Below are positions 22,963 to 23,779 of a stretch of 64,000 bases of DNA, one piece after another (position 1 is the stretch's first letter; the number at the start of each line of letters is the position of its first letter). The notes below the pieces were generated by a model, which searched no databases, was not told the DNA's origin, and saw only the letters and a list, made by a program, of their open reading frames with translations. The translations under genes were made by a program, and so were the position numbers. Source of the stretch: the human T2T-CHM13v2.0 reference genome, Homo sapiens; assembly GCF_009914755.1 (NCBI RefSeq), contig NC_060941.1, one strand, 5' to 3'.

Positions 22963-23779
22963 TCTGAAGGTATTCAGATTCATGTCTTTGTCTTGTGCCA
23001 CTTTTAAACGTGATTCTCCTGAATGGTACGTTCAGTAGGACCACAATGCTAACCAGGCTAAGGCAGAAAGGTTGAATGGGTTCTTGTAACTGGAAACCTG
23101 AGCTACAGCGCTACCTTCAGGCACAGCTGGATTCAGGCATAGACGCCGCAGGCCTCAGGCTTTGCTCTCTTCTATGCTGGGCTTTATCCTCCCAAAGGCC
23201 CTCCCCTCATTGTGGCAAAACGGCTGCAACAGTGCTGTCCTTCATCCTCCCAGACTTAAATCCAACCAGCAAAGACCCCACTTACCTAATGGCTTCCACA
23301 AAAATCCAAGAATTGAGTCTCTTTTTATTTATTTATTTATTTTTTTGAGACGGAGTTTCACTCCTTTGTCCAGGCTGGAGTGCAATGGCAGGATCTTGGC
23401 TCACTGCAACCTCCGCCTCCCAGGTTCAAGGGATTCTCCCGCCTCAGCCTCCTGAGTAGCTGGGACTACAGGCACCCGCCACAATGCCCGGCTGATTTTT
23501 TGTATTTTTAGTAGAGATGGAGTTTCACCATGTTGACCAGGCTGGTCTTGAACTTCTGGCCTCAGGTGATCCACCCGCCTAGGCCTCCCGAAGTGCTGGG
23601 ATTACAGGTATGAGCCACTGCACCCGGCCAAGAATTGAGTCTCTTGACTAACTGGCCTGCTTTTGGTCGGATGTCCACTCCCGAGCCCATCACAGTCACC
23701 AGGCAAGGTGATGGATTGGCAGGGCCTGGCTCACACCAGGCTGAGGGTGTAGCCAGTTTAACCTAGATGACAAGGACTG
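22962..23779 (-). repeat. Inverted duplication, right (derived) arm, interrupted by Alu 23324-23629
   Basis: 6 substitutions + one 5-bp indel versus the left arm; Alu flanked by TSD AAGAATTGAGTCTCTT (23308-23323, 23630-23645). Confidence 0.97.

What the first reader, a model, noticed from the sequence alone, without database searches (positions are those of the whole stretch)
23308..23645. Age paradox: an old AluS sits in one arm although the arms are about 98.7% identical
Seen: the arms differ by only 6 substitutions in 491 bp. The right arm nevertheless holds a heavily CpG-decayed AluS-type element (roughly 10% from consensus by eye) with a 16-bp TSD. The left arm lacks it and is missing 5 bp inside the TSD sequence (CCAAGAGTCTCTT vs CCAAGAATTGAGTCTCTT). 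Inference: either the duplication is old and the arms are homogenised by gene conversion, or the Alu was copied with the segment and then near-precisely excised from the left arm via TSD microhomology, which is a rare event.
Basis: partly seen in the sequence, partly recalled or inferred. Interest (0 to 1): 0.7.

Follow-up and report, generated by a model that had tools for sequence, protein, structure and literature searches.

The report
Old Alu lost after young duplication
Near the human retinal gene GUCY2D, a short stretch sits next to a 98.8%-identical flipped copy of itself, and only one copy carries a jumping-gene insert that is likely about 40 million years old; most likely the copy was made a few million years ago with the insert in it and the original then lost the insert almost cleanly, a rare but known kind of accident with no known function.

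Summary
Observation confirmed. The inverted arms (19801-20291 and 22962-23779) differ by 6 substitutions in 491 bp. Only the right arm holds an AluSq-like element: 12% from the local majority, 6 of 23 CpGs left, about 40 My, with no close source found in the genome. The left arm lacks it plus 5 bp of the target site. New here: the right arm is the derived copy. It sits between two tail-to-tail Alus cut at its exact edges, 4 consensus columns apart, the known local inverted duplication-with-deletion pattern. Long-term gene conversion is disfavoured: it needs about 140-360 times the mutation rate; 0 of 450 nearby inverted Alu pairs reach 95% identity; and the arms match perfectly to all four edges (model-dependent). 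Best reading (0.55): a duplication about 2-13 My old carried the Alu, and the donor then lost it by end joining at 2-bp microhomology inside the target-site repeats. Against this: the 16/16 target-site match is unusual for an old Alu (3 of 82). No primate outgroup could be examined, so the order of events is inferred. Not found in three inversion lists. An instructive case of known processes.

The parts
19801..20291 (+). Left arm (likely donor locus), 491 bp, Alu-free
   Evidence: a weak old-repeat match crosses its outer edge (19713-19850, E 0.021)
19934..19946 (.). Empty-site junction: one TSD minus 5 bp, 2-bp microhomology, forming a perfect 6-bp inverted repeat with a 1-base centre
20292..22961 (.). 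Spacer, 2670 bp, with a CpG-rich island (about 21300-21950) and several Alu pieces
22808..22961 (+). 3'-truncated AluS (Sx/Sq/Sp branch), cut at core column 168, no tail, abutting the inner end of the right arm
   Evidence: diagnostics read by eye
22962..23311 (-). Right arm, inner segment (350 bp, 3 substitutions)
23308..23323 (.). TSD copy 1 (16 bp)
23324..23629 (-). Full-length AluSq-like element with a patterned A-rich tail (tail 23324-23345)
23630..23645 (.). TSD copy 2 (16 bp, identical to copy 1)
23637..23779 (-). Right arm, outer segment (143 bp, 3 substitutions)
23780..23950 (-). 3'-truncated Alu of the Sc/Y branch, cut at core column 172, no tail, abutting the outer end of the right arm
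   Evidence: diagnostics read by eye

Best explanation
The right arm is likely a young inverted copy that carried the old Alu with it, and the left (donor) arm likely lost its Alu then or later by end joining inside the target-site repeats. Step 1 (inferred): two tail-to-tail Alus at 22808 and 23950 broke or were skipped near the start of their right monomers; both 3' halves and whatever lay between were lost. Step 2 (inferred): repair synthesis switched to a template 2.7 kb upstream in reverse orientation, copied 818 bp including the roughly 40-My-old AluSq and its TSDs, and rejoined; each junction shares 1 base. Arm divergence dates this to about 4 My (1.5-8.8) at 1.5e-9 per site per year, or about 6 My (2-13) at 1e-9. 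Step 3 (inferred): the locus now held two identical inverted Alus about 3.4 kb apart. The left one was deleted (327 bp) by a join between its two TSD copies, 5 bp out of register, at 2-bp microhomology that a snap-back hairpin could have extended. No function is implied.
For: Shown: the Alu is old and has no close source (best other copies 89-90% among 40 scored of 4999 candidates; its private 27-mer is unique, and the 7 one-mismatch hits are 81-87% identical overall). Both right-arm edges abut tail-less, 3'-cut Alus, 4 columns apart. Size and distance fit the commonest class of small 'inversion' in Sudmant 2015 (under 1 kb, within 5 kb). Control: 0 of 450 inverted Alu pairs within 6 kb reach 95% (mean 82.8% vs 82.6% for 1441 distant pairs); same-branch pairs 0 of 73 (83.8% vs 83.6%). 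Terminal perfect runs are 75, 167, 24 and 87 bp, with no shadow beside the Alu. The only other indel in the arms falls exactly in the TSD, as a deletion junction must. The junction meets the SD-MMEJ criterion of Yu and McVey, with a 6-bp inverted repeat seen in 9 of 272 possible microhomology deletions. Inverted Alu pairs are known to lose one or both members (about 108 of 13,664 loci in chimpanzee over 6 My; Cook 2011). The cut flanking Alu belongs to the Sc/Y branch, generally younger than Sq (age order recalled), so the inner Alu probably predates the duplication.
Against: No outgroup was seen. Clean Alu loss is very rare (12 cases among 54,037 primate Alus, quoted second-hand), and an out-of-register join when 18 bp of perfect repeat was available is odd. 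The perfect 16-bp TSD pair is unusual for an old Alu (3 of 82 old full-length Alus including this one); conversion or a young insertion would predict it, although TSD-guided loss would also select for intact TSDs. The edge test is neutral (likelihood ratio 0.75-1.5) if conversion tracts run to the very boundary. The same 5-bp hairpin-perfecting deletion could occur at a never-filled site. The fold of the Alu strand does not pair the TSDs and is no more stable than shuffles (z -1.09). The control Alu pairs did not necessarily start identical, and near-identical inverted pairs may have been purged.
Confidence: 0.55

Rival explanations
1. Old duplication (over 30 My). The Alu inserted into the right arm afterwards, and arm-to-arm gene conversion has kept both segments about 99% alike; the 5-bp loss is a separate hairpin-driven deletion.
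For: Explains the perfect TSD pair, since the single left copy could homogenise both (3 of 82 old Alus have an exact TSD of 16 bp or more). Needs no rare Alu loss. The edge test does not exclude it if tracts reach the boundary (LR about 1). Conversion and recurrent inversion between larger inverted repeats are well documented.
Against: Needs 7-18 conversions per site over a span with 0.05 mutations per site, about 140-360 times the mutation rate, even in a 143-bp piece. 0 of 450 and 0 of 73 neighbouring inverted Alu pairs show anything like it. With any realistic end effect the LR is 4-460 against it. If the Alu did not block tracts, the asymmetry should have been erased (inference). It requires an Sq insertion after an Sc/Y-branch insertion, and the lone indel to fall in the TSD by chance. 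The locus is absent from the inversion lists searched.
Confidence: 0.2
2. Young duplication in which the copying polymerase skipped the Alu while making the new copy. Two later crossovers between the arms (one in each segment) then swapped the Alu-bearing and Alu-free versions, so no Alu was ever cut out of an established locus.
For: Puts the slip inside the error-prone synthesis tract (own knowledge of MMBIR). It has the same number of junctions as a one-event version of the best model, and gives the same sequence today (inference).
Against: Needs a crossover in only 143 bp. No inversion polymorphism is listed here.
Confidence: 0.1
3. Young duplication of an Alu-free donor, followed by recent insertion of an already diverged AluS transcript (stealth driver) or a young Alu overwritten by an old one.
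For: Perfect 16-bp TSD. Polymorphic AluS insertions 5.2-11.2% from consensus exist (7 of 48 in Kryatova 2017).
Against: No source or donor above 90% was found (only 40 of 4999 candidates were scored). 17 of 23 CpGs are lost and the tail is patterned. Elements over 10% diverged were inactive in assays quoted. The 5-bp deletion in the TSD would be a coincidence.
Confidence: 0.08
4. Assembly or cell-line artefact of this reference.
For: Only one assembly was examined.
Against: Six scattered substitutions with a normal transition bias and complex junctions are not what a collapse or false duplication gives.
Confidence: 0.02

Closest known systems
Small local inverted duplications with insertion-site deletion ('Inverted Dup' and 'Ins with Dup and Del' of Sudmant 2015, PMC4617611, passages read; the name dDUP-iDEL is recalled)
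   Same: Under 1 kb copied in reverse within 5 kb, sequence lost at the insertion site, minimal junction homology.
   Different: Here the donor differs from the copy by a whole old Alu; the event appears old enough to have 6 substitutions; polymorphism is unknown.
Precise removal of Alus between TSDs (van de Lagemaat 2005 and Doronina 2019: not held, seen only as cited in PMC10531181 passages; AluS deletion polymorphisms, Kryatova 2017, PMC5402677, parts 1-4 of 7, passages and supplement 2 read)
   Same: A whole old Alu is gone and both deletion ends lie in the TSD copies.
   Different: The join is 5 bp out of register; the pre-deletion state is preserved in a paralogue 3 kb away instead of being inferred from another species.
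Alu pair exclusion deletions (Cook 2011, PMC3215922, passages read)
   Same: Inverted Alu pairs lose part or all of one or both members; this fits both the cut flanking pair and the loss of one of two identical inverted copies.
   Different: Their validated deletions were 1.6-5.8 kb in the rows seen and not TSD-bounded; no templated insertion was described in the passages seen.
Inverted repeats kept alike by conversion or recurrent inversion (Aguado 2014, PMC3961182, passages read; X and Y palindromes recalled)
   Same: Near-identical inverted arms around a unique spacer.
   Different: Those repeats are 1 kb or more; these arms are 350 + 143 bp and no inversion is catalogued here.
SD-MMEJ snap-back junctions (Yu and McVey 2010, PMC2943611, passages read)
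   Same: A short-microhomology join lies inside one arm of a new inverted repeat.
   Different: Shown in Drosophila at induced breaks; here it is only a sequence signature that also fits a deletion at an empty site.

Membership tests
AluS (AluSq-like) | Lacks the AluY diagnostic changes | tested here: met
   By eye, alignment against the RepBase alignment: no 2-nt deletion, none of the Y changes in either monomer except one G near position 163 shared with Sc/Y
AluS (AluSq-like) | AluSq diagnostics (T57, G near 153, two A substitutions and one inserted A near the 3' end) | tested here: met
   4 of 5 present by eye; the inserted A is ambiguous. RepeatMasker was not available, so Sq versus Sq2 is not resolved
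AluS (AluSq-like) | Divergence of an old element | tested here: met
   5.6-6.7% non-CpG, 17 of 23 CpGs lost; 37-45 My and about 41 My by hand with the rates
AluS (AluSq-like) | TPRT hallmarks: intact 3' end, A tail, TSD | tested here: met
Local inverted duplication with deletion | Copy under 1 kb, within 5 kb, reversed | tested here: met
   818 bp, 2670-bp spacer (class)
Local inverted duplication with deletion | Sequence lost at the insertion site | tested here: met
   Both flanking Alus lack their 3' halves, tails and TSD partners; the size lost is unknown
Local inverted duplication with deletion | Junction microhomology | tested here: inconclusive
   1 shared base at each junction; 7 of 13 in-register matches at the inner one, counted by eye
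Local inverted duplication with deletion | Unduplicated ancestral allele seen in people or apes | not testable with these tools
   No primate or second human assembly is held
Precise TSD-mediated Alu deletion | Exact restoration of one TSD | tested here: not met
   327 bp lost instead of 322
Precise TSD-mediated Alu deletion | Short identical flanks available | tested here: met
   18-bp exact repeat
Precise TSD-mediated Alu deletion | Alu present at the orthologous site in outgroups | not testable with these tools
   No outgroup sequence
Conversion-maintained or recurrently inverting inverted repeat | Repeat of 1 kb or more at 97% or more (working definition in Aguado 2014) | tested here: not met
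   491 bp in two pieces (definition)
Conversion-maintained or recurrently inverting inverted repeat | Both orientations seen in people or apes | tested here: inconclusive
   No entry found in three lists; small events are under-listed and the hg38 and hg17 lifts were from recall
Conversion-maintained or recurrently inverting inverted repeat | Arms cluster by species | not testable with these tools
   No outgroup
SD-MMEJ junction | Junction plus one base each side inside a repeat of 4 bp or more within 20 bp | tested here: met
   6-bp inverted repeat. The criterion is met by chance in 54% of microhomology joins in the source paper; a 6-bp inverted repeat in 9 of 272 here

The most novel reading that the evidence does not exclude
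Small local inverted duplications that copy an Alu create an identical inverted Alu pair, and the cell resolves it by deleting one member almost exactly at its TSDs. This would be a route to near-clean Alu loss far above the background rate, with the lost state archived in the neighbouring copy, so such losses could be counted in a single genome and would be a source of false 'absence' in Alu phylogenetic markers.
Probability: 0.25. Interest if true: 0.62.

Novelty: new member of a known kind. Interest (0 to 1): 0.4.

Why it matters
Alu presence or absence is treated as an almost irreversible marker, and clean losses are known only from a few cross-species cases. This locus likely preserves the before and after states side by side, with readable junctions. 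If outgroups confirm it, it is a clear example linking inverted-Alu instability, templated inverted insertion and TSD-bounded loss. If they show an old repeat instead, it would mean a 143-bp piece has been homogenised for about 40 My, which would be more surprising. A side point: recombination between the arms would flip a CpG island 12 kb upstream of GUCY2D; no such allele or effect was found in print in the searches made.

Tried and rejected
Paralogue as outgroup: genome searches with the arm and its edges returned only the two arms. Polarising the 6 substitutions: G/C states split 2 left and 3 right, uninformative. Inner versus outer divergence (3/350 vs 3/143): not different, P 0.36. Fold of the Alu with both TSDs: no TSD pairing, z -1.09. 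Old-repeat matches across the left edges: one at E 0.021, the rest chance level. Rfam 19000-24500: 0 matches. Catalogue look-ups without a hit: Porubsky 2023 supplement, T2T coordinates, 33 chr17 entries; 612 candidate inversions, hg38; Feuk 2005 human-chimpanzee list; Kryatova 2017 supplements (no chr17 string, so formatting may hide rows); Sudmant 2015 (only one file held, so its coordinate tables were probably not seen). Literature searches for the locus or the combination gave nothing on it. Not held: van de Lagemaat 2005, Kronenberg 2018, Aleshin and Zhi 2010, Harpak 2017; Kronenberg's ape SV tables could bear directly on the date. PMC2836564 gave no subfamily ages. In one search the observed junction was missed through a too-long probe; one search corrected this. 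The control covers 264 kb, not the 464 kb planned.

Full report
Observation. The window holds an inverted repeat with arms at 19801-20291 and 22962-23779 and a 2670-bp spacer (T2T chr17:7,893,801-7,894,291 and 7,896,962-7,897,779). The 491 shared bases differ at 6 positions (1.22%, Poisson 95% interval 0.45-2.65%). The right arm has 327 extra bases: a minus-strand Alu, its tail and one TSD, plus 5 bp. The TSD is 16 bp, 18 with two chance bases, and its copies are identical. A genome search finds only these two copies of the arm, and it is the only near-identical non-Alu pair in 264 kb.

Age of the Alu. Against the majority of 40 full-length window Alus it differs at 12.0% of sites, 6.7% outside CpGs, and keeps 6 of 23 CpGs; the AluY at 22045 keeps 20 of 23. 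Against its 11 nearest fetched relatives the non-CpG figure is 5.6%. Read by eye against the RepBase alignment in Kryatova's supplement, it has 4 of 5 AluSq diagnostics, one ambiguous, and lacks the AluY changes apart from one G shared with Sc/Y. With the rates in that paper this gives 37-45 My (non-CpG) and about 41 My (CpG), against about 4 My (1.5-8.8) for the arms, or about 6 My (2-13) at a slower ape rate of 1e-9 (own knowledge). Arms as old as the Alu should differ at 39-66 sites. The Alu has no close sibling: the best other copies were 89-90% identical (40 scored of 4999 candidates), its private 27-mer occurs once, and the 7 one-mismatch hits are 81-87% identical overall.

Which arm is new. 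Both ends of the right arm abut Alus that stop abruptly near the start of their right monomers: a plus-strand AluS at 22808-22961 and a minus-strand Sc/Y-branch Alu at 23780-23950. They lack tails, and no TSD partner was found (for the left one only an 8-bp word recurs). They are cut at core columns 168 and 172, nearly in register; two random cuts would be that close about 3% of the time (9/282, by hand). Each junction shares 1 base. Retrotransposition starts at the 3' tail, so it cannot make such ends (established knowledge). The left arm runs on into non-Alu sequence, and a weak old-repeat match crosses its outer edge (E 0.021). The right arm is therefore an inserted, reversed copy that replaced the centre of a tail-to-tail Alu pair. 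[quoted passage not shown]

Conversion test. Keeping 1.2% over the Alu's age needs 7-18 conversions per site while 0.05 mutations accrue, 140-360 times the mutation rate. As a local control, 175 Alu pieces of 130 bp or more in 264 kb gave 450 inverted pairs within 6 kb: mean 82.8%, maximum 91.5%, none at 95%, against 82.6% for 1441 distant pairs. Restricting to same-branch full-length S/Y elements (93 of 112, J-type dropped) gave 83.8% for 73 near inverted pairs and 83.6% for 1553 distant pairs. Caveats: these pairs may not have started identical, and near-identical inverted pairs are purged. The four terminal perfect runs are 75, 167, 24 and 87 bp. In 20 tract models the likelihood ratio for recent origin was 0.75-1.5 when tracts run fully to the boundary (4 models) and 4-460 otherwise (16 models), so this test depends on the model. 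A further difficulty is inferred: if the Alu blocks tracts, a diverged shadow is expected beside it, and if it does not, the asymmetry should have been erased.

The junction. Of 4325 distinct deletions with ends within 30 bp of the two TSDs, the observed one removes 327 bp at 2-bp microhomology; exact TSD restoration would remove 322 bp at 18-bp homology. The product is a perfect 6-bp inverted repeat across the join, present in 9 of 272 microhomology deletions and the only 6-bp case among the 16 with both ends in the TSD copies. This fits snap-back SD-MMEJ but would equally fit a hairpin-perfecting 5-bp deletion at a site that never held the Alu. Its value is positional: the only other indel in 491 bp lies exactly where an Alu deletion junction must lie (about 4% by chance, by hand).

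Evidence the other way. An exact TSD of 16 bp or more was found for only 3 of 82 old full-length Alus, this one included (crude detection). Conversion from the single left copy, or a young insertion, would predict that; TSD-guided loss would also favour elements with intact TSDs. Clean Alu loss is rare, 12 among 54,037 (second-hand), although inverted pairs lose members far more often, about 108 of 13,664 in 6 My. Old-looking AluS insertions that are still polymorphic exist. Single-strand folding gave no support for TSD pairing.

Mechanism and odds. Best (0.55): a young inverted duplication carried the Alu and the donor lost it, in the same repair event or later as one of two identical inverted Alus about 3.4 kb apart. 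The anatomy, ages and controls are shown; the order of events and the repair pathways are inferred. Rivals: old duplication plus conversion (0.2), Alu skipped in the new copy and arms later exchanged (0.1), late insertion of a diverged AluS (0.08), artefact (0.02); the remainder is unassigned.

What is known. The locus was not found in the T2T inversion table of Porubsky 2023, the 612 candidates of PMC13629690 or Feuk's human-chimpanzee list; the last two rely on coordinate offsets from recall, and small events are under-listed. Searches showed no paper on this locus or this combination; several key papers and supplements were not held. Papers seen: passages of PMC10531181, PMC4617611, PMC13629690, PMC2943611, PMC3670932, PMC2836564, PMC3961182 and PMC3215922; abstract and supplement searches of PMC10150506; supplement searches of PMC1270012; parts 1-4 of 7, passages and supplement 2 of PMC5402677.

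Verdict. A real and well-defined anomaly, best explained by two known processes meeting at one locus. It is a new member of known kinds, without evidence of function, and one comparison with ape and macaque assemblies would settle it. Interest 0.4.

Noticed in passing
window 21300-21950: CpG-rich island (GC 0.68, CpG observed/expected 0.63) in the spacer with no RefSeq gene, 12 kb upstream of GUCY2D; recombination between the arms would flip it.
   Followed up: partly
window 22808-22961 and 23780-23950: The two Alus bounding the right arm are cut 4 consensus columns apart, as if across a fold-back stem; the left one also has a 13-column internal deletion just before the cut.
   Followed up: partly
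window 17658-17875 and 20941-21195: Two further Alus within 2.2 kb of the left arm carry large internal deletions in the right monomer yet keep matching flank words; the neighbourhood has several damaged Alus.
   Followed up: no
window 13537-14042 and 14919-15380: Old direct repeat pair, 73.6% over 512 columns, 1.4 kb apart and not homogenised.
   Followed up: no
window 20128-20319: Weak self-inverted similarity (E 0.18) ending near the inner breakpoint at 20291, including a 12-bp imperfect inverted repeat; may be chance.
   Followed up: no
window 20000-20230 and 19000-19900: The inner segment looks like an old MLT1-type solo LTR fragment and the outer flank like L2; both names are recalled resemblances and were not tested.
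   Followed up: no
window 22045-22326: AluY-type element next to the CpG island keeping 20 of 23 CpGs, the least decayed Alu in the window.
   Followed up: no
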